DNA of 25,611 nt from Micrococcales bacterium (lineage in GTDB: Bacteria; Actinomycetota; Actinomycetes; Actinomycetales; Dermatophilaceae): NCBI GenBank assembly GCA_031406655.1, contig JANOHS010000581.1:1-25611 (forward strand). Reading direction: 5' to 3'. This document shows, in pieces, positions 1-22,079 of the stretch. The notes under the pieces are model-generated. The model saw only the letters and a list, made by a program, of their open reading frames with translations. It was not told the origin of the DNA and did no database searches. How positions within the stretch are numbered: the stretch's first letter is position 1; the number at the start of each line of letters is the position of its first letter. Position numbers and translations under genes: made by a program.

Positions 1-1416
1 CCCTTCCAGAACCGTTGTGGTGATCGTGCCCGTCGCGCCGGCGACGTTCACGCTGCCGAAGGCGCCGGTCATCGGGGTGCCGAAGCCGGGGCCGGTAGTG
101 ACGGCATCGTCGATGACGATCTCGGCCTGGTCGACGTTCGAACCACCGGTGGTGGCATCGCTGAGGTCAGCGGTCACGGTGACATCGCTCAGGCCGTTGG
201 ACGGGTTGGGGGTGACGCTGATGCTGGAGGAGACCGGGCCGACCACGTCGTCGTTGGGCAGGGGCGCAGCTGTGTCCAGGAAGGTGAGCATGCCACCAAA
301 GGCAAAGGACAGCGGGTCTGTGGTGGTCTGCCCGTTGTTGTCCAGGCGGCCGGCAGCCTCGAAGAGCGTGACCTTGGACTCCGGCCCGGAGGGCATCGTG
401 ACAAGGGTGTCGAGGGTGACTCCGGGGTCGACCGACGCGATGACCTCGGTCTCGGCGTACTGCGTGGCGTGACCACCCTGCGCGACCTGCGTCTGGTCGG
501 CGCCCAGCAGGCTCATGGCGTGCGACTGCGAGCCGACGTTGACGTAGCGCAGCAGGACCCGGTGTCCCTGGTCGGTGCTGATCGGGTCCGTCTCCGGGAA
601 GGGCTTGCCGTTGATCAAACGGTATGCCGGGGCGAACTTGCGCATGTCGAAGGTGGCCGGTGCGGCGTTGAGGGCGGGGTCGATCTCGCTGAGCACGACC
701 ACTGCGTCATCGTCGTACGTCGTGTCGGGGTAGTCCCTCACCACGCCGTAGGCGTTGTGTGTCTCGGACGGCGGGTCGGTGGCGGGGACGACCGGGACAG
801 CCGGAGGAAGAACCACCAGTGCCCCCGCGAGGCCCATCGCCACCTGACGGGTGCCGTTGGCGGTGTGGCCGGCCTCGTAGATGAAGGTGCCTGCCCGGGC
901 GGCCGAGAACGTATAGGTCGCGGTGGCGCCCTGGGCGACGCCGACCTCCTCCGCCTGGGCAGAAAGGCCCGCGGTGAAGGCGGTGGTCGGCTGCCCCGGG
1001 AAGGCCAGGGAGACCTGTTGCCCGGCGAGCTCGTTGTGCAGGGTGACGGTGACGGTGTCGCCCTGGTTGACCACCAGCAGCGGTCCGGGCGCGGTGGCCG
1101 TCTCAGCAGCGCCAGTGCTCGAGAAGCCCCAGATGGGGATCGGCGCACCGAGCACTGAGGTGGTGCCGGCCATCGCATAGAGATGACAGGTGGGCGTGGT
1201 TCCGTTCGCGGTGCAGCCCTGAGGAGCCAGCCTGCCCACCGCGATCGCGGGAACCACGGCGGACGGGTGCGAAGCCGCCGCCGTGGCGGCGTTCGCACTC
1301 AGCGGTGTCGCGAGCAGGCTGATCGCGGCCACCATGCTGGCGGTGGCGATGAGTGCGACGCCACGCAAGGTGTACGAACGCGGGGCTGACGGGTCAGCCG
1401 ATCCGATGAGTGTCAT
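1..1416 (-). CDS. MCO-C: secreted two-domain cupredoxin (multicopper-oxidase-like) protein lacking canonical Cu ligands, fused to a C-terminal Ig-like region; 3' end lies outside the window
   Basis: Absent from the ORF track because it has no stop in the window. I translated it by hand from ATG 1416 (GAGGA RBS overlapping the upstream stop at 1426-1428); it is open for 472 codons to position 1. MTLIGSADPSAPRSYTLRGVALIATASMVAAISLLATPLSANA is a signal-like N-terminus. It has PGPLLVVNQGDTVTVTLHN, SLAFPG, TFIYEAGH, AMGLAGALVV, LSEIDP, LINGKPFP, VLLRYVN, HAMSLLG and FGGMLT, collinear with the two upstream paralogs. A beta-rich segment (GPVSSSISVTPNPSNG...VTVTADLSD...GGSNVDQAEIVID) follows. Confidence 0.85.
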   Translation of the reverse strand, partial: MTLIGSADPSAPRSYTLRGVALIATASMVAAISLLATPLSANAATAAASHPSAVVPAIAVGRLAPQGCTANGTTPTCHLYAMAGTTSVLGAPIPIWGFSSTGAAETATAPGPLLVVNQGDTVTVTLHNELAGQQVSLAFPGQPTTAFTAGLSAQAEEVGVAQGATATYTFSAARAGTFIYEAGHTANGTRQVAMGLAGALVVLPPAVPVVPATDPPSETHNAYGVVRDYPDTTYDDDAVVVLSEIDPALNAAPATFDMRKFAPAYRLINGKPFPETDPISTDQGHRVLLRYVNVGSQSHAMSLLGADQTQVAQGGHATQYAETEVIASVDPGVTLDTLVTMPSGPESKVTLFEAAGRLDNNGQTTTDPLSFAFGGMLTFLDTAAPLPNDDVVGPVSSSISVTPNPSNGLSDVTVTADLSDATTGGSNVDQAEIVIDDAVTTGPGFGTPMTGAFGSVNVAGATGTITTTVLEG

Positions 1417-1425
1417 CGCCAGTCC

Positions 1426-2730
1426 TCAATTCGCCTGGCAGCCGTTGGGAGGATCGATGCGGAAGACCGTCATCATTCCTCCGAAGGCTGCGCCGTAGTT
1501 GGTGGCTTGCTCCAGCGCGTGGCTGTGGGCGATGTGGTAGTACTCGCCGCACTCGTTGTTGGAGGTGATGTTCGTCGGCAGGGGGTTCTTGGTCCCGAGG
1601 TAGGGGCTCTCGCTGAACCACGAGTCCGGGCCGACGAGGTCCTGGTCGGTGATCGCGGGGATCTCTGTGGGGATGGGGTTGGTCTCGGCGTTCCACTGCT
1701 CGACGTCGCGCCAGTCCATCAGGGCGTCAACGGTCTGCCCGGGCTTCACATCCAGGAGGTACTTCAGGTAGGACAGGTCCTGATCCTGACCTGCGGGGCC
1801 GGCCAGGGCGTGTCCGTCCTTGTTGACCACCCGCTCGTCGCTGCCGTGGGGGTGGAACGGGAAGTTGACGCTGCCCGCGTTGATGTACCGGATGACTGCG
1901 GGCAACGGGTTGGTGGTCGCGTCGTAGGGGCGGATGTGCACCAGCGCTCCGTAGGGCTGACCCGGAAGCCACGAGGCGTTGTTCGGCGCCAGGGTGTCCG
2001 GCATGCTGCGCCCGTTGATCATGAAGTACCGGGGATGGAACGCCTTCCAGTTGATCGGCTGCGACATCTCCACTGCCAGGTGCAGGTCGGGGTCGACCTC
2101 GGAGAGCATGTACACGTACTCGTGTGCCGGGTTGAAGGCGGAGTCGGCGCGGCCGTTGACCTGGCCAGGCGCTCCGGCGGGGCGCACGACGAGGGCGCCG
2201 TACAAGCCCATCTGCTTCTGCTTGTTGACGTCGGTGCCGCTCTCATAGAGGTAGGTGCCGGGGCTGCCGGCGGTGAACGTGTAGGTCACCGAGCCGTTTG
2301 TCTTGGCGGCACCCTGCACCAGGGAGGTCAGCGAGCCGCCGGTGTCCAGCTGCGGCTGGGCCGGGTTGCCGTTGGCCTTCACGCCCTTCTGCCCCGGGAA
2401 CACGATGGAGGTCGCCTCGGGAAGGGTGTTGTGCAGGATGACCGTGACGGGCAGACCGGAGGTCACGCACAGGGTCGGCCCCGGCAGCTGGAAGCCGCGC
2501 TTGCTGTTGCCGTAGCTCCACATGTAGATCGAGTTGCCGTCCGGGGTCAGGACGTAGCCGTCCTGCGCGGTCAGCGAGAAGGTCTGTTGTGCGTCTGTGT
2601 CGCACAGCAGCCCCTCGGAGGTCGCGGCCCCGGCAGCGCCGGGGTTGGTCACCGCTGCGGAAACGATCAGCGCGACGACCGTCGCTGCGACGGCGAGCCG
2701 CCGCGGTGCGAGGTGGGAAACGAGATTCAT
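1426..2730 (-). CDS. MCO-B: secreted two-domain multicopper-oxidase-like protein retaining only domain-2 HxH motifs
   Basis: 434 aa with a GGAGA RBS and a signal-like N-terminus (PRRLAVAATVVALIVSAA...AAGA). Cupredoxin motifs include FQLPGPTL, QMGLYGALVV and FMINGR. Domain 1 is degenerate (TSIVFPG, TYLYESG). Domain 2 has FPFHPHG (about 1843-1863) and HIAHSH (about 1519-1536), with no type-1 Cys. Confidence 0.9.
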   Translation of the reverse strand: MNLVSHLAPRRLAVAATVVALIVSAAVTNPGAAGAATSEGLLCDTDAQQTFSLTAQDGYVLTPDGNSIYMWSYGNSKRGFQLPGPTLCVTSGLPVTVILHNTLPEATSIVFPGQKGVKANGNPAQPQLDTGGSLTSLVQGAAKTNGSVTYTFTAGSPGTYLYESGTDVNKQKQMGLYGALVVRPAGAPGQVNGRADSAFNPAHEYVYMLSEVDPDLHLAVEMSQPINWKAFHPRYFMINGRSMPDTLAPNNASWLPGQPYGALVHIRPYDATTNPLPAVIRYINAGSVNFPFHPHGSDERVVNKDGHALAGPAGQDQDLSYLKYLLDVKPGQTVDALMDWRDVEQWNAETNPIPTEIPAITDQDLVGPDSWFSESPYLGTKNPLPTNITSNNECGEYYHIAHSHALEQATNYGAAFGGMMTVFRIDPPNGCQAN

Positions 2731-2752
2731 GGCATCTCCTCGGTCGGTGTCG

Positions 2753-4027
2753 TCACGCGTTCGCGCTGGTCTGTGTTGGATAGGCGTCGACAGCCTGCGG
2801 GTCCCTGACGAGGATCTTCGTCATCATGCCGCCGTAGCCCGGGCCGCCACCGTTGTGCAGGTAGGAGTACTTGCGGTCGTAGAGGAGGTACTCCCCGGGG
2901 TCGGGCGCCTCGAAGATGACGTCCCGGCTCTCGCCGGGGCCGACGTCGACGGTGTTGGAGATGAGGTAGTTCGTTGTGCCGTCGCGGCCCTTGAGCAGCA
3001 TGGCGTCCTTGGCCACGACCTGGAGGTCGACGTTGTCGACGCTCATCGTGTGGTTCTGGTAGCCCAGGTTGGACAGCCGCAGCAGCACCCGGTCACCGGA
3101 GTTGCACGTGACCAGGGACGAGATCGGCTGGTACTGAAGCCGTCCGGCAGCCGCCGACAGCGGGTTGCCCGTGGGCTCGATCGTGTCGGGGTAACCACGT
3201 CCGTTGAGCAACCAGAAGTTGGGGTCGTAGTCGGTCCAGTCGCTGACCTGGATGTGGGCGTCGCGCCAGTGGGCGGCCGACCACATCTCCGTGATCATGA
3301 ACGCGAACTCGCGGTCGTAGCGGGTGGAACCGTCTCCGTCGTTGTAGGCGTACTTGGTCCCGACCGGGTCGGTGCCGATCGGCGTCTTGTTCTGCTTCGG
3401 CCGGACGAAGACCATCCCCGTCATACCCATCTGCACGTGCTCCACGTCCTCGAAGTGGCAGTGGTACATGTACGTACCGGCGTCGTGTGGGCGGTAGAAG
3501 TAGGACAGGTCGCGACCGACCGGGACCGCGAGCGAGAGCTCGGGGACGCCGTCGAACAGCGGGATCGCGTTGACGAAGCCGTGCCAGTGCAGGGTGTGCC
3601 CGTCGAACAGGTCCGGGCGTACCAGAAGCCCCAGGTTGGTCAGGGTGATGATGATGTTGTCCTCCTCGTCGAAGGCAAGCATCGGCGCGCTGATCTGCGC
3701 CTTGCCCCGCTGTGCGGCCACCCCGGCGGCGTCCATGCCGGTGACGTCGCGGAAGCCGAACACATACGTGTCGAAGGGACTGGGCGCCAGGGAGTCGGGG
3801 AAGAACGGCGGGTCGACCGGGGAGTTCGCCGGCATGGAGACCCAGCCGTCGGTGCCTGCCAGGTGCAGCTCCTTGGTGCCGGGCGGTAACGCCCGGACCA
3901 ACCCTCCCGCCGTCCTCGTGGTGGCCCCCGCCATCTGGGAGCCCAGCAGGGTGGCGCCGGCCACGACCGCTCCTCCGGTGAGGAACGACCGGCGGCTGAA
4001 GCCGGGGCGTGATCTGTTCTCGTTCAC
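2753..4027 (-). CDS. MCO-A: Tat-exported two-domain multicopper-oxidase-like protein with type-1 Cu site and HxH motifs in domain 1 only
   Basis: Start reassigned to GTG 4027 (GGAGA RBS at 4032-4036), giving 424 aa. Twin-arginine signal SRRSFLT. Domain 1 has HTLHWHG (3578-3598) and YHCHFEDVEHVQMGM (about 3420-3466). Domain-2 equivalents are degenerate (NHTMSVDN, YLLYDRK). Confidence 0.92.
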   Translation of the reverse strand: MNENRSRPGFSRRSFLTGGAVVAGATLLGSQMAGATTRTAGGLVRALPPGTKELHLAGTDGWVSMPANSPVDPPFFPDSLAPSPFDTYVFGFRDVTGMDAAGVAAQRGKAQISAPMLAFDEEDNIIITLTNLGLLVRPDLFDGHTLHWHGFVNAIPLFDGVPELSLAVPVGRDLSYFYRPHDAGTYMYHCHFEDVEHVQMGMTGMVFVRPKQNKTPIGTDPVGTKYAYNDGDGSTRYDREFAFMITEMWSAAHWRDAHIQVSDWTDYDPNFWLLNGRGYPDTIEPTGNPLSAAAGRLQYQPISSLVTCNSGDRVLLRLSNLGYQNHTMSVDNVDLQVVAKDAMLLKGRDGTTNYLISNTVDVGPGESRDVIFEAPDPGEYLLYDRKYSYLHNGGGPGYGGMMTKILVRDPQAVDAYPTQTSANA

Positions 4028-4082
4028 GGGATCTCCAGAAGGGTGAGTCGGGCTGGTGCAGGGGTCGGCAGCAGGACGGTGG

Positions 4083-7000
4083 TCATGGCTGGAACTGGTC
4101 GGAGCCGGCGTCGTACCGTCGGTTCGGAGCGATACCTGTGGGCCGGGGCTGTCCGTCGATGTCCGGGCTGGGTGCGTTGACGGTGTAGGTCCAGCCCGAC
4201 GTACCAGGTCCCCAGACCGCCAGGGTGCTGGCGGCACCTCGCCCGTAGGCGGGGGAGGAGGAGCTGAGCAGGTGGTAGTTGCCCATCAGGCTCGGCGGCA
4301 GGATCTCGGTGACGATCACCGCCTGTCGGAAGGCCGGCCAGGTGCGCAGGCCCAGGAAGCTGACCGACACGTCGAACGGGTCCACGAACATCGGGTCGTC
4401 GCTCAGCGTCGTGTTGGTGCCGCCGTCGGTTCCATCGGCGCTCTGGATGACCGAGCTGACCGGCGAGAGCACACCGGAACCGTCCGCGGCACCCATGTCC
4501 CAGTTGGTGACGTCGGTGGGGCCGGCGAGCCCCAGACCGGAGACGAGACCGCCGCTGAAGGCGCCTGCTCGGTTGTCCGAGAACACGTTGTTCAGCAAGG
4601 TGGGCTTGCTGAAGACCGTGTTGGCCAGAATTGCCGAGCCGGGGAACAGAGTGGTGGTACGCAACCTGGCCTGCAGCGGGTCGCTGTTGGCACCCGTGGA
4701 CAGGCCCGCGGGGGCCGCAGAACCGTCGCTGGTGACTGCGGTCGCGGTGGTGAGGTTCTTGACCACTGTGTTGTTCGCGATGTTCACGAAGACCGCGTCG
4801 TCCAGGGCCAGCCCACCGCCCTCATGGGCGGAGACGTTGTTGGCGATGGTGTTGTTGGTGATCGTGATGAGCTCGGGCCTGCTCCGCCTGATGTGGTTGC
4901 CGCTGGTCTGCAGCAGCCGCACGCCACCGCCGTCGTCGTTGGCCAGGTTGGCCTGGATCACGTTGGCGTCGATGGTCACGGGACCCGACCCCTCCGACAA
5001 CGCGGTCGGGACGGCCGGCAGCTCGCCGGCGATCATGACGCCGCCGCCTTCGTCGTAGGAGGCGTTGAACCAGATCCGGTTCTTGATGATCCTGCCGCCG
5101 CTGGCGTTGTAGCCGAAGGCCGAGACCGCGCCGCCATACTCGGCGGAGTGGTTGCCGCAGATCGCGTTGGCCTCAACGGAGTAGTTGTTGGTGCCGGCGA
5201 ACAACCCGATGGCACCGGCGAGGTTGGTGCCGCCGTTGTCACGGATCTGGTTGCGCGCCACGACCAGGTTGTCGTTGTTGTTGTCGCCGACATACGGCGT
5301 GCCCACCCGGAGAGCTCCGCCGTAGGAGCCGCCGTTGCCACGGATCACGTTGTCGGTCAGCCGCAGTCCGCGGACGTTGTTGTGCACGTAGATGCCGCCG
5401 CCTTGGGTGATCAGTGCACCGGTGGCGCCGTATGGCGTGCTGACACCGCCCGTGATCGCGTTGATGTTGCCCACGAAGTCGGACTGCGCCCCGCCGGTGA
5501 TGGTGAATCCGTCGATGGCCAGGTTGTAGGACGCCGGAACCAACCCAGCCAGAGCCGGGTCGTCCAGGACCGTGACCACAGCGGCGCTGGGCACCGCCGG
5601 GTTGCCCGAGTAGGTCAGGCCGCTCAGCAGGGTGATCCAGTTGTCGCCGCTGGGCTGGTCGGGGTTGAAGCCTGCCCCGTCGATGATCGATCCCGGCACG
5701 TACGTGCTGCCCTGGAAACCGCCCGGGCCGACACCCTGGATGCGCACCTGGTGGTGCACGATCAGGTTCTCCGTGTACTCACCTCGGGGGTTGTCGGTGG
5801 TCTGGGCGTTGGGCCAGACCACGACCAGCCAGAACGGCTTGGCGGAGGTGGGCGTTGCAAACTCGAGCGCCTGCTGGATCGTGTTGAACTGCCTGCCCGG
5901 GCCGACCTCGGCGAGCCGTGGCCTGCCCGCAGTGGTTCCGTCGACGCTGGCGCTGGCCGTGCCCAGGACGTGGATGGTCAGGGCGTTGTACGTCGAGAGG
6001 CCGGTATCCGCCCTGGTGATGCTCAGGGCGTATGCCCCGGTATTGAAGGCAAAGGGCACCACGAAGGACACCTGGGTGTCGGTCCAGCTGGTGGTGGGCC
6101 TGGTCGCGCCGTTGAGCCTGAGCACGCCGGCCGTGCCGAAGCCGATGCCCTTGACCGTCACCGTTCGGTTGGGAGCGGAGGCCTCGTTGCGCACATACGG
6201 CCGGTTGACCGCGAATATCTGGGGTGCGCCCGCTCCCAGGTCGCACATGGTCGGGTTGGCCGCCGTGGCGCCGGGCGCAAGGATCGTCGCGGCCACCTGG
6301 GTGGGCGCCTCGTCGGTCACCGTGTAGAGCCCGGGCCAGGCCTGGAAGTTCGTGGCAATCGTCCTGAACCGGGGGTTGAAGTCCGGGTTGAGCGCGCCTG
6401 GCTGGCCTGGGTCGTTGCCCACGAACCGGTACATGTTCGCGCAGGGCCCTGCGGGAACCGGGCAGTTGAACGTGCCGGTCGAGGGGACCAGCGCCTCATA
6501 GAATCCGTTGAAGTCGGTGTGGGTGGTGTAGGAGAGCCGGCCGAAGGAGTCATACAGGCCGACCGGCACGTGTGCCAGGCCCTGTGCCTCGCCGTAGTTG
6601 ACGCTTCGCTTGTCCAGAGCCAGACCAAGGTCGTTGATCGTGATGCCCCAGAAGTGGGTCGGCAGCGGCACCTCGGTGAAGAGGGTGAAGCTGGGCGCCG
6701 TGGCCTGGGCGTTGCGCACCGTGACGAGCTTGTCCTCGCAGGAGGGCCTGTCCATGCCCTCGAACGGGCTGCCGCCACCGTCCACGAACGCAGGGTGGGT
6801 GACATGGACCGTGTGCAGTGCGCCGGCGCACGGCGAGACGATGCCACCGGTCTGCGACGGGTCGGCGCTCGGCTGCGTCGGGTCCGCAGGTGGCGGCGGA
6901 GCGGCGCCGTCAGCCTCCTGCGCGGTTGCGGGCGGGAAGTTCTGCTGTGGCAGGAAGCTGTCACCGTCGAAGACGTTGAGGTCCTCCTCCGAGGTCGCCT

Positions 7001-9533
7001 TGTACATCGGCTTGCCACCGACCGGGTTGTCCGGGATGTCGACCGAGACGATGTAGTCGCCGGGCCGCAGGTTCTGCTCCGCGCCCCCCGTCAGAGGCGC
7101 GTAGAGCGCCAGACCGTCGGGGTTGTGCACGGTGTCACTTGCTGGCCACAGGTTGAGTGTCGAGGTGCCGAACCCGTAGTTGCCGTTGACGGTCTGACCC
7201 GCCGAGAGTGGGTCGGTCGTGTCGCTCGGGCCGATGGCGACGCCCATCATCGGTGCCTCCACGCAGAGCTGGTTGGCGGCCGCGCCGAACGCGGGCAACG
7301 CCTGCTGGTCGGTCAGCGGGGTCCCGTCGTGCTGCCGGGCGGTGCAACCGCGTGGGGGCGCAAAGGACTCCGACGTCGTTGTGTTCAGCTGGGGCCCCTT
7401 CAGCAGAGCACCACGGTTGGGATCGGGGTTGGTGATGAGCGGAACCGGAACCGGGATCGCGGGGTCGGGCTGAACGAAGGTCGGGTCTGGGATCTGCAGC
7501 GGGACGATTGCCTTGCCCTGGCGGCACGCGTTGGCGATGTCCTCGGGGGTGGTTGCCGTGCAGGGAGTCGACGCGTAGAGGTTCACCGGAAGATCCGGGA
7601 TGCCAGGGGAGTAACCCTCGACCGCCGCGTCCGCAGGGTCCAGCTCGTTGCGGGTCGTGTCGTAGAAGACCGTGCCGACGATGCCACCGTTGGTGCCGCT
7701 CTCGTAGGGCTGCACACCCCAGTCGATCTGGCCACGGAGGCCGATCACCGGCAGGAAGGCCAGGTCCACCAGGCCGCCCAGCTTGGTTGTGGCCGTTGGG
7801 TCGTTCTCGGCCTTGTAGGTGATGCCGGTCGTCCGGTACTTGGTGTTGAAGGCTTCCAGGATGAGCCACTTGCTCAGCGGGTAGACCTCACGGATGTCGT
7901 AGGCGCCGGAGGAGTCGGTGACTGCGGTGTTGGTGTACTGGTCCATCAGAGAGTTGTCGCGCTCGCGGACCGTCAGCCCGAAGCCTGGGACACCCTGCTC
8001 CCCGGTATCCAGCCTGCCGTTGGCGTTGTCGTCCACGAACACCCGACCGTGGATGCGGGTGAACCAGCCGACCAGCATCTCGGTGCCGACGTCGGTCACC
8101 GCTCCGCCGGAGACCTCGACGTTGACGCTCCACAGGAGGTAGTCCTGGTCGTCGTCCCACATCGTCAGCTGGTAGGTGCCGTCGGGCACGTGCTCGATGT
8201 TGAAGGAGCCGTTGTCGGCACCACGGCCGACATACACCGCGGTGTCACCCGCGCCCAGGTCGCTCAGGGCCACCCAGGGCTTCTTGATCGGCCCGTCGAT
8301 CTTGGATCCCCCCAGACCCGGCTCCCCCGGGCTCACCAGGCCACCTTGACCACCGATGTACATCAGACCGGCCACCACGACGCCCTTGACACCACCGGTG
8401 ACGGTGGGTGGGGTGGTGAGTGCCCGGGTCTTCACGAAGCCGAACTGCACCGATGGCACCAGCTCGTTGCCCTTGAGCATCTCCGTGTCGAACCCGGTCG
8501 CGCCCTCCTGGCTCCAGATGTCGTGGTCGTGGCCACCCTCCAGGGTCGTGGTCTGGACCCACTGGCCGTCGGTGGTCGCCGGCGGCGTGACGGTGGCACC
8601 CAACCGGTTCGGGCCCATGTTGGGGATGAGGATCAGGCCGCTGGCGTCGCTGACGCAGCGACCCGTGGTAGCTGGGTCGACCACGGGACTACCGTCGGTG
8701 TCGAACTTGATCGGTGCGTTCGGCCTCTGGGCGTCGGTGTAGTCCGCGCCCCCCTCTGTGTGCATGTACTTGGTACACAGGACGTTGCCGTAGTAGTCGA
8801 CTCCGACGTCGCCGAAGATGTCTGCGAGGTGTCCGGTGAAGCCGGCGAGACCCTGCTCGGCGCCGATCTCGTAGGTTGCGTCGACCGGGGTGTTGTCGTT
8901 GAACACCTGGATCCGCAGAGTGGTCAGCGGCAGCGGCGTCGGGTTCATCTCCACGACCACCGGGGTAGCCACCTGGCCCGGTTCAACGGTGAAGTGCTGG
9001 CCGTCGATCTTGTAACCGTCCGCGGTCACGGAGATGAGGTACTTGCCCGGCGGGAGGTCCGCGAGAGCCGTGTCGACATCCAGGTCGCTCTGGTTGCCCT
9101 GGGCGATGATGGGCGCCTGACCCGAGGTCTTGCGCACAGATGGCCACTGGCAGCTGTCGGCGTAGTCCGGGGCCGTACTGCCCATGAAGTTCGGGTCGGT
9201 GGTGCCCGCAACAGTTGCGGATGCCGGAAGGCACGCCTGTGTGCCCTGGGCTGCCGCCGTGCCCGGGTCGCCGGTGTCGTCCAGGTTGATCAGCCACTTG
9301 TACTCGGTGATCGCATCGCCCTTCTGCACCATGCTCACCGCCGGAGGGACCGCAGGACCCACTGCTGGGTTCAGCGACCGGGCGCTGATGACGCTCAGCG
9401 TGATGCTGCCGGGATCCGTTGGGGCCGCCAGAGCTGGCGGTGCCAGAAGGGGCACCGTGAACTGGGCGGCGACGATGGCAAGCGCTGCCAGCACCACGAC
9501 TACCGCACGTCCATGCGTAATCCGACGTCCCAT
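4083..9533 (-). CDS. Very large secreted multidomain protein: SdrD-B/Cna-B-like (carboxypeptidase-regulatory-like) beta-sandwich repeats, IPT/TIG domain, pectin-lyase-like right-handed beta-helix, choice-of-anchor-Q-like C-terminus
   Basis: Start reassigned to ATG 9533 (GGAGG 5 nt upstream), giving 1816 aa. Signal peptide MGRRITHGRAVVVVLAALAIVAAQ...PPALA. Recognised motifs: VFVDDNANGRLDTGEQGVPG (SdrD-B-like, about 7990-8043); PQIFAVN...VTVKGIGFG...SWTDTQVSFVVP (IPT/TIG, about 6050-6230); FNTIQQAL followed by repeated Asn-ladder coils (ITDNVIRGN-type, e.g. LTDNVIRGN, ARNQIRDN, DANVIQAN, TNNTIANN); C-terminal DPMFVDP...NYHL...DIDGQPRP...YDAGSD. Domain names come from motif recognition, not a search. 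Confidence 0.85.
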   Translation of the reverse strand: MGRRITHGRAVVVVLAALAIVAAQFTVPLLAPPALAAPTDPGSITLSVISARSLNPAVGPAVPPAVSMVQKGDAITEYKWLINLDDTGDPGTAAAQGTQACLPASATVAGTTDPNFMGSTAPDYADSCQWPSVRKTSGQAPIIAQGNQSDLDVDTALADLPPGKYLISVTADGYKIDGQHFTVEPGQVATPVVVEMNPTPLPLTTLRIQVFNDNTPVDATYEIGAEQGLAGFTGHLADIFGDVGVDYYGNVLCTKYMHTEGGADYTDAQRPNAPIKFDTDGSPVVDPATTGRCVSDASGLILIPNMGPNRLGATVTPPATTDGQWVQTTTLEGGHDHDIWSQEGATGFDTEMLKGNELVPSVQFGFVKTRALTTPPTVTGGVKGVVVAGLMYIGGQGGLVSPGEPGLGGSKIDGPIKKPWVALSDLGAGDTAVYVGRGADNGSFNIEHVPDGTYQLTMWDDDQDYLLWSVNVEVSGGAVTDVGTEMLVGWFTRIHGRVFVDDNANGRLDTGEQGVPGFGLTVRERDNSLMDQYTNTAVTDSSGAYDIREVYPLSKWLILEAFNTKYRTTGITYKAENDPTATTKLGGLVDLAFLPVIGLRGQIDWGVQPYESGTNGGIVGTVFYDTTRNELDPADAAVEGYSPGIPDLPVNLYASTPCTATTPEDIANACRQGKAIVPLQIPDPTFVQPDPAIPVPVPLITNPDPNRGALLKGPQLNTTTSESFAPPRGCTARQHDGTPLTDQQALPAFGAAANQLCVEAPMMGVAIGPSDTTDPLSAGQTVNGNYGFGTSTLNLWPASDTVHNPDGLALYAPLTGGAEQNLRPGDYIVSVDIPDNPVGGKPMYKATSEEDLNVFDGDSFLPQQNFPPATAQEADGAAPPPPADPTQPSADPSQTGGIVSPCAGALHTVHVTHPAFVDGGGSPFEGMDRPSCEDKLVTVRNAQATAPSFTLFTEVPLPTHFWGITINDLGLALDKRSVNYGEAQGLAHVPVGLYDSFGRLSYTTHTDFNGFYEALVPSTGTFNCPVPAGPCANMYRFVGNDPGQPGALNPDFNPRFRTIATNFQAWPGLYTVTDEAPTQVAATILAPGATAANPTMCDLGAGAPQIFAVNRPYVRNEASAPNRTVTVKGIGFGTAGVLRLNGATRPTTSWTDTQVSFVVPFAFNTGAYALSITRADTGLSTYNALTIHVLGTASASVDGTTAGRPRLAEVGPGRQFNTIQQALEFATPTSAKPFWLVVVWPNAQTTDNPRGEYTENLIVHHQVRIQGVGPGGFQGSTYVPGSIIDGAGFNPDQPSGDNWITLLSGLTYSGNPAVPSAAVVTVLDDPALAGLVPASYNLAIDGFTITGGAQSDFVGNINAITGGVSTPYGATGALITQGGGIYVHNNVRGLRLTDNVIRGNGGSYGGALRVGTPYVGDNNNDNLVVARNQIRDNGGTNLAGAIGLFAGTNNYSVEANAICGNHSAEYGGAVSAFGYNASGGRIIKNRIWFNASYDEGGGVMIAGELPAVPTALSEGSGPVTIDANVIQANLANDDGGGVRLLQTSGNHIRRSRPELITITNNTIANNVSAHEGGGLALDDAVFVNIANNTVVKNLTTATAVTSDGSAAPAGLSTGANSDPLQARLRTTTLFPGSAILANTVFSKPTLLNNVFSDNRAGAFSGGLVSGLGLAGPTDVTNWDMGAADGSGVLSPVSSVIQSADGTDGGTNTTLSDDPMFVDPFDVSVSFLGLRTWPAFRQAVIVTEILPPSLMGNYHLLSSSSPAYGRGAASTLAVWGPGTSGWTYTVNAPSPDIDGQPRPTGIAPNRRYDAGSDQFQP

Positions 9534-9609
9534 GACTGCCTCCACTGAATAGACCATTGGGCGAGTGTTGCGCCGTGGAGTTCAGGGCACGGGCTTCCCC
9601 ACCGCCACC

Positions 9610-9699
9610 TCATGCGACTTTCATGCAGAGCCATCTGCGCGTCATCCACCATCACCTGATGGTCATGAACGGAGCAGATGGCGGTCATCAATCCGTCAT
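9610..9699. promoter_or_regulatory. Helically phased TCAT direct-repeat array, candidate transcription-factor binding region
   Basis: TCAT at 9610, 9621, 9642, 9663, 9685 and 9696, with CCAT at 9631 and TCAC at 9652, on a 10-11 bp period. It lies between the divergent operon and the two-component genes. Confidence 0.5.
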
Positions 9700-10135
9700 C
9701 TGGCTCGCCACGCGACACCTCAGTGGTCCGAGGTCGGTGGGGCCTGTTCTATCCGGCTGCGCGAAACCTGGCCGGTTCGTCATGATCCGGTATGACGTGG
9801 GCGTTTTCCGCGGGGTTGTGCCGGTATGAATGCGATGTGCGCATTGTCGTAGCCCGTTCATGGCCCGTTGGGACCAGAGGCAATAGCTCCATTTGAACGG
9901 GATTGATCACCAGGCGGGCCATTAATCTACCTGGCCCTTACCAAGTCTTTACTTCCGGACGTACATTTTCATAGGTAAGGCGGCCCTTCGGACCGCCTTC
10001 TCGAAAGGCAGGGGTTTGGGGAATGAGACTTTTCGGTTTGCCCGATGGAGCCGGCCGTAGCCCGGCCGCGCACCCGCACTCGACGTCGCACTCCGGCGAT
10101 GTGCTGTTCTCTGTTGAAGCTGGGAGCTGACCGCG

Positions 10136-10810
10136 ATGGCTCTCCTGCTCGTAGCGGATGACGAACCGCGGATCCGCACGGTTCTGAACCGATCGCTGTC
10201 CTCCCAGGGCCATACCGTCTGCGAGGCCTCTGACGGTCAGGCTGCGCTGGACCAGCTCGACTCTCGTGACGTGGACCTCGTCCTGCTCGACCTCGCCATG
10301 CCGCGTCGCGGTGGGCTGGACGTCCTGACTGTGTTGAAACAGCGCGAATCCAGCCCGCCGGTCATCGTGCTGACCGCGGTCACCGAGATGTCCGCCCGGA
10401 TCCAGGCGCTCGACCGCGGCGCGGTGGACGTCGTCGCCAAGCCCTTCTCCACCGTTGAGCTGTCCGCCCGAATCCGTCGGCACCTGCAGCCCAAGGCATC
10501 AGCGCCGTCCGGCGAGCAGCGCTACCTCGAGGTCGGCGGCGTACAGCTCGACCTGCACCGCCGCCGGGCCGTCACCGCCAACGGGCCGGTAAGCCTGACC
10601 GGGCGGGAGTTCGCGTTGCTGGCTCACCTGATGCGGCGCAGCAACGACGTGTGCTCCCGCGAGGAGCTGCTCCACGACATCTGGGACCTGGCCTTCGACC
10701 CCGGCAGCAACGTCGTCGACGTCTGCGTGGGCCGGCTCCGCTCGAAGCTCCAGCCCACCCCTCCGATCGAGACGGTGCGCGGTGCCGGCTACTGCTTCTA
10801 CGACGAATAA
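10136..10810 (+). CDS. OmpR/PhoB-family DNA-binding response regulator
   Basis: 224 aa. Receiver motifs ADDE, DLVLLDLAMP (phospho-Asp), VLTA and KPF; winged-helix motifs LTGREFALL, SREELL..IW, NVVDVCVGRLRSKL and IETVRGAGY. GGGAG RBS upstream. Confidence 0.95.
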   Translation: MALLLVADDEPRIRTVLNRSLSSQGHTVCEASDGQAALDQLDSRDVDLVLLDLAMPRRGGLDVLTVLKQRESSPPVIVLTAVTEMSARIQALDRGAVDVVAKPFSTVELSARIRRHLQPKASAPSGEQRYLEVGGVQLDLHRRRAVTANGPVSLTGREFALLAHLMRRSNDVCSREELLHDIWDLAFDPGSNVVDVCVGRLRSKLQPTPPIETVRGAGYCFYDE

Positions 10811-12044
10811 CCGCGCGTGGCCAGCGCGTTGGAGCGACGTCAGCCTGTTCGACCGCCGACACGTGGTCACGGCATGGACGGTGTGGGGCCTGGGCTGCGT
10901 CATCGCCATGTACCTGCGGCCTGGTCAGGAGACCGTCCCTTACCATCTGGGCTGGGCCGGCTTCGCTCTTGCCTTTGGGCTCGGTATCTGGAGCACCTGG
11001 CAGCTGGTGGTATCCCTGACCTGGTACACGCTCGCCTCAGGGCTCTTCCTCGCTCGCAGCTGGTGGGTGGGCAACGTCGGTTGGGACGAGACCACCGAGA
11101 TCCCGCTCATGTTGTTGCTGGCGTTCCTGATGGTGTGGCACGTGCGGCGCCGCCAGGCAGCCCTGGCCGACGTGACGAAGCTGGCAGAGCGCGAGGTCCA
11201 GGCCTGCCTCGACCGAGAACAGCTGATGCAGCTGACGTCCCACGAGCTGCGCACCCCGTTGACCATCGCCCGGGGCTACCTCGAGCTGCTGCAGTCACGG
11301 GCCACTGAGCTCGAGAACAAGCAGGACCTCGCCGTGGTGTTCGACGAGCTCCAGCGGCTCTCCAGGGTCAGCGACCGGTTGATCCGGATGATCCGGCTGC
11401 AGGACGATACGACCACCGAGATCGTCGACATCGACCATGTGATGGCGGAAGCGGTCGAGCGCTGGCGCGTGGTTGCGGACCGAAGATGGATCCTGGACGC
11501 CCGTGCCGGGCGCGATATCGGGTCGCCCGAGCGGTTGCGCACCGGCCTCGACACGTTGGTCGAGAACGCGATCCGATACACGTCCGAAGGTGACACCATC
11601 CGGGTGGTCGGATCTCGAGACCGCAGGAATGTTGTCGTGGGCGTGTTCGACAGTGGGGCCGGCCTGACCGAGCATCAGATCGCTGCGATCAACGCCGGCG
11701 AAGAGTCCCCGCTGCTCCCCACTACCCAGGACCCGGCAACGGCAACAGACGCGACAACGGATACTGATGCAGCCACGGATGCCGCCGACACGGCAAGGGA
11801 CGGAGCGACGGAATGCGAGGCGGACACCAAGGACGACCTCTCGGGCACCGGCCTCGGCCTGAGCATCGTGCGCGCGCTTGCGAACGCACGCGGGGGGACT
11901 CTGCACGCGTCACGGGCACCCGATGGCGGCGCCGCGATGATCCTCACGTTCCCGCTGGACACGCCTGGTGTCGTCGGGCCGTTCGTACCTCGGCTCGCCT
12001 CAGAAACCACGGGCACCCAGTCCGAGAGGCGCGTGAGCGCGTAG
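10782..12044 (+). CDS. Membrane sensor histidine kinase (HisKA + HATPase_c); start uncertain (GTG 10782 or GTG 10863)
   Basis: N-terminal hydrophobic segments; H-box SHELRTPLTIARGYLE; N-box LVENAIRY; G1 DSGAGL; G2 GTGLGLSIV. Directly follows the response regulator. Confidence 0.92.
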   Translation: MPATASTTNNRAWPARWSDVSLFDRRHVVTAWTVWGLGCVIAMYLRPGQETVPYHLGWAGFALAFGLGIWSTWQLVVSLTWYTLASGLFLARSWWVGNVGWDETTEIPLMLLLAFLMVWHVRRRQAALADVTKLAEREVQACLDREQLMQLTSHELRTPLTIARGYLELLQSRATELENKQDLAVVFDELQRLSRVSDRLIRMIRLQDDTTTEIVDIDHVMAEAVERWRVVADRRWILDARAGRDIGSPERLRTGLDTLVENAIRYTSEGDTIRVVGSRDRRNVVVGVFDSGAGLTEHQIAAINAGEESPLLPTTQDPATATDATTDTDAATDAADTARDGATECEADTKDDLSGTGLGLSIVRALANARGGTLHASRAPDGGAAMILTFPLDTPGVVGPFVPRLASETTGTQSERRVSA

Positions 12045-12195: not shown

Positions 12196-12555
12196 GTGTC
12201 CCCATACCTGACCGTTGCCGGAGCAGTCCTCGCTGGGGGGTTCCTCTTCCTCGCAGCGATGGTGGCCGGTCGGCTGTTCGCGCCGAGTGCGCCGACGACC
12301 GCGAAGCTCAAGACCTACGAGTGCGGTGTCGACCCCGTTGGGGAGGGGTGGGCGCAGACCAATGTGCGCTACTTTCTCTACGCCTTTCTGTACCTGATCT
12401 TCGCCGTTGACGCGGTCTACCTCTTTCCTTGGGCCACGGTGATCCGCAGCGCGGATCTCGGCATGGCCTCCCTCGCCGAGATGGGCATCTTCATCGGTGT
12501 GCTCCTGGTCGGGCTGGCCCACGCCGCCCGGCGTGGGCTGCTCCGGTGGATCTGA
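12196..12555 (+). CDS. nuoA: NADH-quinone oxidoreductase subunit A
   Basis: 119 aa from GTG 12196; three TM segments; [25 protein letters not shown] and RRGLLRW motifs. Confidence 0.92.
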
Positions 12556-12595
12556 TGTCCTCGGTTCCGCTGACGTTGAATGCCGTGGTGAACCG

Positions 12596-13216
12596 ATGAC
12601 CGTTCAGCTGCCCATGCCTCGAGTCGGGCCGGTCACCGGTGACGCGCCCCGCCCGATCAAGGTCGTTCTCAACTGGGGCCGGCGCTACAGCCTGTGGGTG
12701 TTCAACTTCGGGCTTGCCTGCTGCGCCATCGAGTTCATCGCCGCATCCATGGCGCGACACGACTTCATCCGTCTTGGCGTCATCCCCTTCGCGCCGAGCC
12801 CACGCCAGGCGGACCTGATGGTTGTCTCCGGCACGGTCACGGACAAGATGGCCCCGGTGATCCGCAGGTTGTACGACCAGATGCCCGAGCCCAAGTACGT
12901 CATCTCGTTCGGCGCCTGCTCCAACAGCGGGGGCCCCTACTGGGACTCCTACTCCGTCACCAAGGGCGTCGACCAGCTCATGCCGGTCGACGTCTATGTG
13001 CCGGGCTGCCCGCCGCGACCAGAGGCGCTTCTGCAGGGCATCATCCGTCTACAGGAGAAGATCGGCTCAGAAACGTTGTCCAACAAGGCTATTCGTGCAA
13101 AGTATGCCGGGTCGCGCCACGCCGCGGCTGGCGAGGTCACCCGTGGCCTGCTGACCCGGCCGCAACCAGCCAGCTCAGAGGCAACCGGCCGCGAGACCGG
13201 TGGAGAGCTGTCGTGA
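12596..13216 (+). CDS. nuoB: NADH-quinone oxidoreductase subunit B (N2 Fe-S cluster)
   Basis: Start ATG 12596; [33 protein letters not shown] and [16 protein letters not shown] motifs. Confidence 0.95.
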
Positions 13217-13764
13217 ACGAGACGCCTTGTCGCGATGTCCCCCTGCTTGAGTGGACGGCCGCGCTGAGCACTGCCCGCGACGAGGGCTTCGACTTCTTCG
13301 ACTGGCTGACCGCGGTGGATGAGCAGGATGCCGAGGAGAACCCCGGTTTCGACCTCGTCTGCCACCTCATGAACAGCTCGACCGGCAAGGGTTCGCTGGC
13401 TCGGGTCCTCATCCGCACCCGGGTGCCCAACGGTCAGTCGGCTGCCAGTGCAACGGGTGTGTGGGCCGGCGCGGCGTGGCACGAACGCGAGACCCACGAG
13501 ATGTTCGGCGTGGACTTCGAAGGGTTCGACGACGGGACCGGCCTGGGTCTGCGACCGCTGCTGCTTCCCGACGGCTTCGACGGCACACCGCTGCGCAAGA
13601 CGTTCGTCCTGGCGTCACGTGCCAGCAAGGCATGGCCCGGCGCCAAGGAGCCCGGCGAGGGCGCGGGTGGCCCGGCGGACGGCGAGGCGAAGCCCGACAA
13701 GCCGGGTCGCCGCAAGACGGTCCAAGCGCCGGGCGTGCCCGACAGCACGTGGGGACCACGGTGA
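13213..13764 (+). CDS. nuoC: NADH-quinone oxidoreductase subunit C
   Basis: GTGA overlap with the nuoB stop; [22 protein letters not shown] and PLRKTF motifs; Pro/Gly/Lys-rich tail. Confidence 0.9.
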
Positions 13765-14723
13765 ACGCCTGGCTCGACGTACTCGTGCGTCTGGTGATCC
13801 TGTTGCTCGCCTTCGTCGTGATGTCGCTGGTCGTCGGCCAGACCGAGCACAAGGTGATGGCGCACATGCAGGGCCGACTGGGCCCGATGTATGCCGGCGG
13901 GTTCCACGGGTGGGCGCAGCTGGTGGCCGACGCGGTCAAGTTCGTCCAGAAGGAGGACGTCACCCCGCGCGCCGCCGACCGGGTGGTGTTCAAGCTGGCT
14001 CCGGCTGTCGCGCTGGCGCCTTATCTCGTTGCGTTTGCGGTCATTCCGATCTCCCCGACACTGGTAGCAGCAGACGTCGACGCAAGCGTGCTGTTCGTCC
14101 TTGCGGCCAGCGCCGTCGGCATCCTCGGCGTCCTGATGGCGGGTTGGTCCAGCGCCAACAAGTACTCCCTGCTCGGTGGCATGCGTGCGGCGGCGCAGCT
14201 GCTCAGCTACGAGCTGCCCATGGTCCTTTCGGCAGCGTCGGTCGCCCTCGCGGCCGGGAGCCTGTCCCTGACGGGCATCGTCGACGTCTGGCACCCGATG
14301 TGGTTGCTGTGGCAGCTCCCCGGAGCATTCGTCTTCCTGGTCGCCGCGGTCGCCGAGCTCAAGCGCACTCCCTTCGACATGCCGGTCGCCGAACCCGAGA
14401 TCGTCATGGGACCGCTGACCGAGTACTCCGGCCTCAGGTTCGCGTTCTTCATGCTCTCCGAGTACGCGGGCATCGTCGTGATGTCCCTGTTGTTCACCGT
14501 GCTCTTCCTGGGCGGGTCGAACGGCCCGTTCTCGGACGCCCTGGGTCCGGTGTGGACGCTCGTCAAGAGCGCGCTCATCTCCGTGCTGATCATCTGGCTG
14601 CGCGTGTCCTGGCCGCGCCTGCGTGAGGACCAGCTTCAGCGTCTGGCCTGGCTGGTTCTCGTCCCCCTGGCGCTGGCTCAGCTGGCCCTGACCGCAGTTT
14701 GGGTGGTGTTGAGCTCGCGATGA
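13761..14723 (+). CDS. nuoH: NADH-quinone oxidoreductase subunit H
   Basis: GTGA overlap; [42 protein letters not shown]...TEYSG and PRLREDQL motifs. Confidence 0.95.
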
Positions 14724-15286
14724 CCGATCACCAGCATTCACAAGGGGTCCCGCCCAAGGCCCGCGGAATCATACCCGGACTACTCAAAGGAATGGCCACC
14801 ACTGCCAGGACGCTGGCCACGCCGACCCACACGGCTGAGTACCCCAACGTCAAGCCGCACCTTCCACCGCGCACGCGGGGCGTCATCGCGCTGCTCGAGG
14901 AGAACTGCACGAGCTGCATGTTGTGCGCTCGCGAGTGCCCTGACTGGTGCATCTACATCGACTCCCACAAGGAGACTCTCCCGGCAACGACCGAGGGCGG
15001 ACGGGAGCGCCAGCGCAACGTGCTCGACCGGTTCGCGATCGACTTCTCGTTGTGCATGTACTGCGGTATCTGCGTCGAGGTCTGCCCGTTCGACGCCCTG
15101 CACTGGAGTCCTGAGTTCGAGTACGCCGAGTTCGACATCGTGGACCTGGTGCACGAGAAGACCCGGCTCGGGCAGTGGATGCAGACCGTGCCACCGCCTC
15201 CCGCGCTCGACCCGAGCTCGGCGGAGCCTCAAGAGATCGCAGCGGCGAACAAGCCTGTGCGAACAGCCCCAACGGGGAGCGAATGA
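14720..15286 (+). CDS. nuoI: NADH-quinone oxidoreductase subunit I (2x[4Fe-4S])
   Basis: ATGA overlap; [12 protein letters not shown] and [12 protein letters not shown] ferredoxin motifs. Confidence 0.95.
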
Positions 15287-15804
15287 CAAGCCTGGACGTC
15301 CTATTCGGTGCTGTTGGACTGATCACGGCAGCGAGCGCGGTTCTTGCCGTCACCACCCACCATCTGGTGCACGCCGCGCTCTGGCTCGTCGTCGCCCTCG
15401 GCACGCTGGCCGGCTGCTATCTCGTTCTGGGTGCTGAGCTGGTGGCCCTGGTACAGCTCCTCATCTATGTCGGCGCCGTTGTGGTGCTCGTGCTCTTCGC
15501 GCTCATGCTGACGCGTGCGCCCATGGGCAGCAGTCCTGAGCACAGCTCGAGCGCAGCCCAGCGCATCGCGGCCGCCGTGGTTGGGGCCGGGACCACAGCA
15601 CTGCTGGCCTCGGTTCTGCTGCCAGCTCTTGGCGGAGACCTTCTGTCGGTCAAGACCGCTGACACGCAAGGGATTGCCACCCAGCTCTTCGGTTCGTGGG
15701 TCTGGCCGTTCGAGCTGCTCTCTCTGTTGCTGCTCGTGGCGCTGATCGCCGCGCTTGCCATCTCCCGGATGCCGGCCGCGACCAGCGAGCGGGAGTCCGC
15801 ATGA
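15283..15804 (+). CDS. nuoJ: NADH-quinone oxidoreductase subunit J
   Basis: ATGA overlap; hydrophobic; [19 protein letters not shown] and [14 protein letters not shown] motifs. Confidence 0.92.
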
Positions 15805-22024: not shown

Positions 22025-22079
22025 CCGCGGCTGCTGACCTCACCGACCGGCGCCGGTGGCGTCTGGAAGAGTGGCCGAC

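What the first reader, a model, noticed from the sequence alone, without database searches (positions are those of the whole stretch)
1..4027. Split multicopper oxidase: three co-encoded two-domain cupredoxin paralogs whose Cu ligands add up to exactly one 4-Cu catalytic unit
Seen in sequence: MCO-A (2753-4027) domain 1 has HTLHWHG and HCHFEDVEHVQMGM, i.e. a full type-1 set (His, Cys, His, Met) plus four T2/T3 His. Its domain 2 has lost both HxH motifs (HTMSVDN, LYDRK). MCO-B (1426-2730) is the mirror image: domain 1 is empty (TSIVFPG, YESG) and domain 2 keeps HPH and HSH with no Cys. MCO-C (1-1416) has neither set (SLAFPG, YEAG, HAMSLLG, LFEAAG). Established knowledge: two-domain MCOs (SLAC type B; type C with T1 in domain 1) are homotrimers whose trinuclear cluster is built from 4 His of domain 1 of one chain and 4 His of domain 2 of the neighbouring chain. 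Inference: no single gene here can make an active homotrimer, but A-domain-1 plus B-domain-2 supply exactly 8 His and one T1 site. An A-B-C heterotrimer would have one live interface (A1-B2) and two empty ones (B1-C2, C1-A2). That would be an asymmetric, multi-gene counterpart of six-domain single-cluster MCOs such as ceruloplasmin or MnxG. Automated annotation would call these three separate or defective MCOs. I know of no characterised example but cannot search the literature.
Basis: partly seen in the sequence, partly recalled or inferred. Interest (0 to 1): 0.93.

Follow-up and report, generated by a model that had tools for sequence, protein, structure and literature searches.

The report
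Copper oxidase split across three subunits
Three neighbouring, related genes each encode part of a copper oxidase, and the oxygen-reducing copper cluster can only be completed where protein A meets protein B, which points to an undescribed three-subunit form of a well-known enzyme that is conserved in several bacterial phyla.

Summary
On the minus strand, with Shine-Dalgarno sites and gaps of 55, 22 and 9 nt, lie a giant secreted protein G (9557-4083), MCO-A (4027-2753), MCO-B (2730-1426) and MCO-C (1416-1). MCO-C is cut by the contig end and continues on contig C11.

A domain 1 carries a full type-1 site plus four cluster His. B domain 2 carries the other four His. C has none. Alignments to solved type-C two-domain MCOs (3G5W, 2ZWN) put all 12 ligand positions at canonical sites.

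The split is invariant in 82 A and 76 B sequences and holds in A and B at about 46% identity. It also appears in Desulfuromonas and in unnamed organisms with PEP-CTERM proteins. All full-length members of the B family (233 cluster representatives) have a dead domain 1 and a live domain 2. A and B occur in the same 5 of 401 sampled genomes. Natural B-C and C-G fusions exist.

Best reading: an obligate B-A-C heterotrimer with one T1 and one trinuclear cluster, tethered to G. Physical assembly, copper content and substrate are untested, because no multimer model could be run.

I found no description in the searchable literature. This scan has reached the same reading at least ten times on other genomes.

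The parts
2753..4027 (-). MCO-A: Tat-signal two-domain cupredoxin protein (424 aa). Domain 1 carries the type-1 site (H144, C190, H197, M202) and four trinuclear-cluster His (H147, H149, H189, H191). Domain 2 has lost both HxH motifs (S329/D331 and Y383/R385).
   Evidence: 3G5W E 3e-19, 2ZWN E 1e-17, residue-level alignment; ligands 82 of 82; RR in 81 of 82.
3581..3598 (-). A domain 1 motif HTLHWH (T1 His plus HxH).
3422..3463 (-). A domain 1 motif HCHFEDVEHVQMGM (His-Cys-His, T1 His, axial Met), with the same spacing as 3G5W HCHVNVNEHVTMRGM.
1426..2730 (-). MCO-B: two-domain cupredoxin protein (434 aa). In domain 1, T107/V110/P112, E163/S164/G165 and Q171 replace the ligands. Domain 2 keeps H293, H295, H402 and H404.
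   Evidence: 76 of 76; profile alignment to 2ZWN and 3G5W.
1846..1854 (-). B domain 2, first HxH (HPH). It aligns to HSH of 2ZWN and HTH of 3G5W.
1519..1527 (-). B domain 2, second HxH (HSH). It aligns to HDH of 3G5W and lies 12 residues before the conserved GGMMT strand.
   Evidence: (end of strand 397-403).
1..1416 (-). MCO-C, N-terminal 472 aa: signal peptide, a ligand-free cupredoxin pair and the start of an Ig-like tail. It is cut by the contig end and continues on contig C11 (L090:3-1694).
4083..9557 (-). Giant secreted protein G (1824 aa; SdrD_B, CarboxypepD_reg, fn3_3 and CoaZ repeat hits). It is the first gene of the operon. In every fully sequenced cluster examined it is present, separately or fused to the C terminus of C.
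   Evidence: C-G fusion in L097; L101.
10136..12044 (+). Divergent OmpR-family response regulator (10136-10810) and histidine kinase (10782-12044). A two-component pair also neighbours the cluster in Nakamurella and Pengzhenrongella.

Best explanation
A, B and C are subunits of one extracytoplasmic multicopper oxidase built like a type-C two-domain MCO trimer, but from three different chains.

Going round the ring N to C, the order is B, A, C. Three interfaces follow from that order:
- B domain 2 meets A domain 1. Four His from each complete one trinuclear copper cluster.
- A domain 2 meets C domain 1. No copper ligands remain.
- C domain 2 meets B domain 1. No copper ligands remain.

Substrate electrons enter at the single type-1 copper in A domain 1. 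They pass through the Cys190-His189/His191 bridge to the cluster, where O2 is reduced to water. The result is a pseudo-six-domain enzyme with 4 Cu, comparable to ceruloplasmin in having one cluster per six domains.

C closes the ring and links it to the giant surface protein G, through its tail or by direct fusion. The downstream small membrane-anchored protein and the CopC-CopD fusion probably serve assembly or copper supply.

What is shown: the ligand complementarity, its deep conservation, strict co-occurrence and gene order, and the B-C and C-G fusions. What is inferred: assembly, stoichiometry, ring order, electron path and the roles of C, G and the accessory genes. The substrate is unknown.
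For: - A domain 1 aligns residue for residue with the T1 and cluster ligands of 3G5W and 2ZWN, and A domain 2 has S/D and Y/R in place of HxH.
- The B-family profile aligns HPH and HSH to the domain-2 HxH motifs of 2ZWN and 3G5W, and B domain 1 has non-ligands at all seven positions.
- The B model has pLDDT 84.9, with both HxH motifs at strand ends. Its best folds are 3G5W and 2ZWN at TM 0.76-0.78.
- Ligands are invariant in 82 A and 76 B sequences. The same holds in A and B at about 46% identity and in other phyla.
- All full-length B-family representatives, among 233 clusters at E below 1e-30, have a dead domain 1 and a live domain 2.
- Gene order G-A-B-C is present in every locus with enough flank.
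- A and B are found in the same 5 of 401 genomes.
- Real B-C fusions with an intact B C-terminus: P0125, P0274 and P0129.
- Real C-G fusions seen in three assemblies.
- Shine-Dalgarno sites and short gaps indicate one operon.
Against: - No physical or structural evidence of association exists, and heteromer modelling was not available.
- In B-C fusions, B domain 2 and C domain 1 would sit on opposite sides of a B-A-C ring. This is possible only because the linkers are long (130-470 aa). A short-linker fusion would argue for another order.
- In Actinomycetota A has an invariant Tat signal, while C and G look Sec-type. Assembly and copper loading would then have to happen outside the cell or in steps.
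- No expression data were found.
- The substrate is unknown.
Confidence: 0.77

Rival explanations
1. A and B form the active oxidase in another stoichiometry (for example a B-A-B or A-B-A ring, or a higher oligomer). C is not in the ring but is an accessory adaptor or anchor to G.
For: Only A and B carry ligands. C is the least conserved of the three (46-74% identity) and its tail varies from none to more than 2000 aa. B and C are each other's closest paralogs (hhalign score 291 against 198 and 139), so B could occupy C's place.
Against: C keeps the full two-domain cupredoxin core and was present in every cluster examined that is sequenced past B, across phyla. B-C fusions fix a 1:1 ratio. A B-A-B ring would leave an unpaired half-site of four His.
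Confidence: 0.12
2. The proteins do not form a canonical trinuclear cluster. Each half-site binds copper on its own. A would act as a T1 electron-transfer or copper-binding protein, and B as a copper-binding or storage subunit. The operon would then serve copper handling rather than oxidase chemistry.
For: The operon sits next to a CopC-CopD fusion and, in Pengzhenrongella, further CopC, CopD and DUF1775 genes.
Against: Exactly the eight canonical His, in four HxH motifs at canonical strand ends, are invariant over very deep divergence, while every other ligand position is lost. The His-Cys-His bridge in A makes sense only if it feeds a cluster. The Desulfuromonas and PEP-CTERM clusters lack CopCD.
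Confidence: 0.07
3. These are decaying duplicates of a homotrimeric two-domain MCO, and the complementarity is accidental.
For: None beyond the loss of ligands itself.
Against: The ORFs are intact. A is 68-82% identical across orders. The replacement residues at dead sites are themselves conserved. The same pattern is seen in several phyla.
Confidence: 0.01

Closest known systems
Type-C two-domain multicopper oxidases (Nitrosomonas europaea blue copper oxidase, PDB 3G5W; metagenomic mgLAC, PDB 2ZWN)
   Same: The two-cupredoxin fold is shared. The T1 site lies in domain 1, with identical motif spacing (HTxHWHG; HCHxxxxEHxxMxGM). The cluster is built from four His of domain 1 and four of domain 2 of a neighbouring chain. 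These are the best sequence matches for A and the best structural matches for B.
   Different: Those enzymes are homotrimers with three T1 sites and three clusters, and every chain carries all 12 ligands. Here the ligands are divided between two paralogs, a third paralog has none, and at most one cluster per ring is possible.
Six-domain multicopper oxidases (ceruloplasmin, hephaestin; bacterial MnxG of the Mnx complex)
   Same: There would be one trinuclear cluster per ring of six cupredoxin domains, and the other inter-domain sites are degenerate (established knowledge of ceruloplasmin; Mnx in PMC5622069, listed).
   Different: Those are single polypeptides with the T1-plus-cluster domain at the C-terminal end. 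Ceruloplasmin keeps three T1 sites. Here there are three separate genes, or two where B and C are fused, and a single T1 in a domain-1-type position.
Iodide-oxidising enzyme IOX (IoxA + IoxC) of Iodidimonas and Roseovarius
   Same: It is a bacterial multicopper oxidase purified as a complex of at least two proteins, encoded in one cluster with copper-chaperone genes (PMC9415286).
   Different: IoxA carries all four copper-binding regions itself, and the role of IoxC is unclear. There is no split of the cluster ligands between subunits.
Three tandem MCO genes of Sideroxydans lithotrophicus ES-1 (He et al. 2017, PMC5566968)
   Same: Three adjacent genes for predicted extracellular MCOs, noticed in an Fe(II) oxidiser and left without a functional inference.
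   Different: Homology to this trio was not tested here. That cluster is described with a mofC-like cytochrome and an SCO1/SenC gene, not with G. The paper does not mention complementary ligands.

Membership tests
Multicopper oxidase superfamily (cupredoxin domains, Pfam Cu-oxidase_3 / Cu-oxidase_2 / Cu-oxidase) | Cupredoxin-type MCO domains | tested here: met
   Pfam hits above the gathering score in A, B and C. 66 of 67 B-family members hit Cu-oxidase_3.
Multicopper oxidase superfamily | Type-1 copper ligands His, Cys, His (plus axial Met) | tested here: met
   Met in A domain 1 only: H144, C190, H197 and M202, aligned to 3G5W and invariant. Absent from B and C.
Multicopper oxidase superfamily | Eight His in four HxH motifs for the trinuclear cluster, carried by one protein species | tested here: not met
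   A has four (domain 1), B has four (domain 2) and C has none. The full set exists only as A plus B.
Type-C two-domain MCO (3G5W, 2ZWN) | Two cupredoxin domains with the T1 site in domain 1 | tested here: met
   A matches over both domains (E 3e-19 and 1e-17), with T1 in domain 1. The B fold matches at TM 0.76-0.78, but B has no T1.
Type-C two-domain MCO (3G5W, 2ZWN) | Domain 2 of the same chain supplies two HxH motifs, so a homotrimer is self-sufficient | tested here: not met
   A domain 2 has S329/D331 and Y383/R385 where 3G5W has H203/H205 and HDH. These positions vary in distant A proteins.
Type-C two-domain MCO (3G5W, 2ZWN) | Trimeric ring quaternary structure | not testable with these tools
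   Only monomer prediction was available.
Six-domain MCO (ceruloplasmin type) | Six cupredoxin domains in one polypeptide | tested here: not met
   Here there are three genes. The largest natural fusions found are B-C (four domains).
Copper nitrite reductase (NirK) | Type-2 site from two domain-1 His plus one domain-2 His of the neighbour; His-Cys without a following His | tested here: not met
   A has the MCO-type HCH and HxH motifs. TIGR02376 scores 33-41 bits against a cut-off of 296.
IOX-type multi-protein MCO (IoxA/IoxC) | Catalytic subunit with all four copper-binding regions | tested here: not met
   No subunit here has all four regions. IOX as described in PMC9415286.

The most novel reading that the evidence does not exclude
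The A-B-C ring, docked on the giant G protein, is a cell-surface redox machine. It would couple oxidation of an extracellular or mineral-bound substrate (Fe(II), Mn(II), humic or phenolic matter) to O2 reduction. It would also be a living intermediate between homotrimeric two-domain MCOs and six-domain single-cluster oxidases such as ceruloplasmin. It occurs in Desulfuromonas and Geobacter-like bacteria, in one case beside an OmpB/MofA-like copper protein, and B-type proteins carry Nitrospirota source names. This would place it among metal-cycling organisms.
Probability: 0.3. Interest if true: 0.9.

Novelty: new variant of a known kind. Interest (0 to 1): 0.82.

Why it matters
Multicopper oxidases are textbook enzymes. 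The known forms are single chains of three or six domains, or homotrimers of two-domain chains.

An obligate heterotrimer whose only oxygen-reducing cluster sits between two different gene products would be a new quaternary solution. It would give a natural snapshot of how six-domain, single-cluster oxidases could arise by duplication and complementary loss.

It would also correct annotation. Hundreds of species carry these genes labelled as separate "multicopper oxidase domain-containing proteins", and some as "manganese oxidase". Expressed one at a time, each would be inactive.

Cultured carriers make the hypothesis directly testable. Examples are Kribbella, Terrabacter, Nocardioides pocheonensis, Nakamurella panacisegetis, Pengzhenrongella phosphoraccumulans and Desulfuromonas versatilis.

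Tried and rejected
1. The apparent G-A and B-C fusions in contig L096 (P0152), and the apparent B-C fusion P0144, were rejected. tblastn and direct reading show that the C-terminal parts of G and B lie in another frame, so these are frameshift read-throughs, not fusions.
2. The first AlphaFold run of B used 37 close sequences and gave a poor domain 2 (pLDDT 71). It was replaced by a run on a 67-sequence diverse alignment.
3. Global hhalign of A against B misplaced the second HxH because B has an insertion of about 45 aa. The profile-to-PDB alignment and the spacing to the GGMMT strand settled it.
4. A NirK-like reading of A was rejected on motif type and NCBIfam scores.
5. A search for RNA runs found only runs of unknown type. 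Laying contigs showed presence in freshwater-sediment metagenome contigs and in runs of unrecorded type, but gave no transcript evidence.
6. Ten literature searches found no heteromeric two-domain MCO. The Sideroxydans transcriptome paper does not mention MCOs.
7. The small downstream protein matched no Pfam, NCBIfam or named Atlas family.
Full report
**What is in the window**

The window is a contig of a 3.29-Mb metagenome-assembled genome (624 contigs, 92% complete). It starts at the contig end. Four genes lie on the minus strand:
- G, a giant secreted protein, at 9557-4083 (1824 aa);
- MCO-A at 4027-2753 (424 aa);
- MCO-B at 2730-1426 (434 aa);
- MCO-C from 1416 to base 1 (472 aa, open).

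The gaps are 55, 22 and 9 nt. A, B and C are each preceded by a GGAG or GAGGA site. The remaining 563 aa of MCO-C lie on contig C11. There they are followed by a small membrane-anchored protein, a CopC-CopD fusion and an SLT-domain protein. An OmpR-type response regulator and a histidine kinase lie divergently upstream of G.

**Check of the observation**

All three MCO genes hit Pfam Cu-oxidase domains. No NCBIfam equivalog comes near its cut-off.

MCO-A matches the type-C two-domain MCOs best: 3G5W at E 3e-19 and 2ZWN at E 1e-17.
- HTLHWHG aligns to HTIHWHG, and YHCHFEDVEHVQM-GM aligns to YHCHVNVNEHVTMRGM. Domain 1 therefore holds the T1 set (H144, C190, H197, M202) and four cluster His (H147, H149, H189, H191).
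- In domain 2, S329 and D331 align to H203 and H205 of 3G5W, and Y383-D-R385 aligns to HDH. Both HxH motifs are lost.

For MCO-B, a profile of 37 family members aligns as follows.
- fhPhG aligns to MHSHG of 2ZWN and IHTHG of 3G5W.
- ahsh aligns to IHDH of 3G5W.
- In domain 1, T107, V110 and P112 stand where the three His of HxxHxH should be. E163-S164-G165 replace His-Cys-His, and Q171 replaces the T1 His.

Profile-profile alignment places C's residues (VSLAFPG, YEAG, HAMSLLG, FEA) at the same positions with no ligand. All codon coordinates were verified.

**Structure**

An AlphaFold2 model of B built on a diverse 67-sequence alignment has mean pLDDT 84.9 and pTM 0.83. Only the signal peptide and an insertion at about 350-390 are poorly modelled. 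H293/H295 and H402/H404 sit at the ends of strands 290-294 and 397-403, as HxH motifs do in MCOs.

Foldseek ranks 3G5W (TM 0.76 by target) and 2ZWN (TM 0.78, rmsd 2.8 A) first. B is thus a complete type-C-like two-domain protein whose four cluster His would be exposed at a subunit interface.

**Conservation**

MCO-A has thousands of relatives. The top 120 are 72-95% identical and come from Dermatophilaceae, Cellulomonas, Nakamurella, Nocardioidaceae, Frankiales and others.

A scan of one genome per species returned 403 loci, of which 80 were fetched. Every locus with enough flank has the order G, A, B, C. The ligands are invariant in 82 of 82 A and 76 of 76 B sequences. The replacement residues at dead sites are also conserved, for example A D331 and R385, and B S108 and F111.

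In an even sample of 401 Actinomycetota genomes, only 5 carry A, and the same 5 carry B. The four besides this genome have A at about 46-48% identity, and they keep the gene order and the exact split.

An exhaustive HMMER search with B found 233 cluster representatives at E below 1e-30. Every full-length one has a dead domain 1 (SIVFPG-like, YxSGT) and a live domain 2 (HPFHxHG, HSH).

Every distant cluster examined in which the neighbouring genes are fully sequenced (L095, L097, L099, L100, L101, L103, L104) shows three things: an A-type gene with a complete domain 1 set and no HxH-type motif in domain 2, a B-type gene, and a ligand-free C-type gene.
- L103 is the complete genome of Desulfuromonas versatilis.
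- L104 is a Geobacter-like contig in which the cluster lies near an FKBP gene and an OmpB/MofA-like fn3 copper protein.
- L097 and L100 come from organisms with PEP-CTERM proteins.

Source names of B-type proteins also include Nitrospirota, Leptospirillia, Methylocaldum, Desulfococcus and Bryobacteraceae. Context there was not checked.

**Gene fusions**

Two kinds of fusion survive scrutiny.

*B-C fusions.* P0125 (884 aa, L095), its cluster mate P0274 from a separate JGI assembly, and P0129 (1156 aa) have an intact B C-terminus. It is followed by a linker or Ig-like region of 130-470 aa and then by C. In L095 the fusion lies in the usual context: A, then B-C, then the small protein, then CopCD.

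*C-G fusions.* In L097 and L099 (three independent assemblies) and in L101, one ORF holds the C cupredoxin pair followed by a region collinear with nearly the whole of G.

The apparent G-A and B-C fusions of L096, and the apparent B-C fusion P0144, are frameshift artefacts and were discarded.

**Mechanism proposed**

In two-domain MCO trimers, the cluster lies between domain 2 of one chain and domain 1 of the next (established knowledge; see the closest-known entries).

Electrons would enter at the T1 copper of A and reach the cluster through the Cys190-His bridge.

At dead interfaces the former ligand positions hold conserved Arg, Asp or Glu, or hydrophobic residues. This fits sites that are filled rather than metal-binding.

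HHalign scores (B-C 291, A-B 198, A-C 139) suggest that A split off first and that B and C arose by a later duplication. That is consistent with stepwise complementary loss from a type-C homotrimer. This last point is inference.

C would be the adaptor to G. Its tail ranges from none to about 600 aa, or it is fused to G.

In Actinomycetota, A has an invariant twin-arginine signal. RR is frequent in B, and C and G look Sec-type. In Desulfuromonas, A has a Sec-like signal. Where and how copper is inserted therefore remains open.

**What is not shown**

No tool here could model heteromers, so association, stoichiometry and geometry are inferred. No transcript data were found. The contigs laid place the organism in a freshwater-sediment metagenome and in runs of unrecorded type, and the run search also lists permafrost and soil metagenomes. 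The substrate is unknown. The JGI label "manganese oxidase" on some members is automatic.

**Literature and earlier scan notes**

Ten full-text searches found no natural heteromeric two-domain MCO.
- Nmar_1354 is described as an alpha-alpha-alpha' trimer, but of one gene product that is partly truncated (PMC11761707).
- IOX is a two-protein MCO in which IoxA has all four copper regions (PMC9415286).
- He et al. 2017 noticed three tandem extracellular MCO genes in Sideroxydans lithotrophicus ES-1 and could not infer a function (PMC5566968). Whether these are A, B and C was not tested.

This scan has reported the same split-ligand trio on at least ten other genomes, with the same reading. My tests here were made independently on this window's sequences.

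**Verdict**

It is a new variant of a known enzyme kind, of high interest, and it awaits biochemical proof.

Noticed in passing
L090:1843-2238 (own genome, contig C11); also L003:15789-16349, L095:4622-5116, L097:19154-19627, L100:12916-13323, L104:13334-13723: A small protein of about 130-190 aa follows MCO-C in both actinobacterial and Gram-negative-type clusters. In the actinobacterial versions it has an N-terminal membrane anchor. Its core is conserved (GVRFSRVAVV..GG...L.Y.VLD.EKA ... G.L.L.HVPV). It matches no Pfam, NCBIfam or named Atlas family. It may be an assembly or anchoring factor.
   Followed up: partly
L090:2235-4169 (own genome, contig C11): A CopC-CopD fusion protein (645 aa, YcnJ-like layout) follows the small protein. 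The same arrangement is seen in Nakamurella, Pengzhenrongella and L095. It is absent from the Desulfuromonas and PEP-CTERM versions, which carry a Peptidase_S8 gene instead.
   Followed up: partly
L104:16291-21269: In a Geobacter-like contig, the G-A-B-C cluster lies about 3 kb upstream of an FKBP isomerase gene. That gene is followed by a protein of more than 1300 aa with an fn3 domain and an HCHxxxH..M motif, resembling the OmpB/MofA class of outer-surface copper proteins.
   Followed up: no
L096 (ENA contig_35350), 1893-11997: G is split into several ORFs, and the called G-A and B-C 'fusion' proteins are read-throughs after frameshifts, probably assembly indels. Database proteins P0152 and P0144 are therefore unreliable.
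   Followed up: yes
window 12497-21065 (+): A complex-I-like gene row with domains of NuoB, NuoC, NuoI, NuoJ, NuoL, NuoM and NuoN. No NuoE, NuoF or NuoG domains were seen among the ORFs scanned. A Peptidase_M1 aminopeptidase follows at 22056-24572.
   Followed up: no
window 1-9600: Near-identical DNA (up to 93% of sampled words) occurs in freshwater sediment, permafrost and soil metagenome runs. The organism is an environmental actinobacterium.
   Followed up: partly
window 3989-3994 (A residues R12-R13) and homologs: The twin-arginine motif of MCO-A is invariant in 81 of 82 actinobacterial sequences. The Desulfuromonas A protein has a Sec-like or lipoprotein-like N-terminus instead. The export route of the catalytic subunit therefore differs between lineages.
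   Followed up: partly
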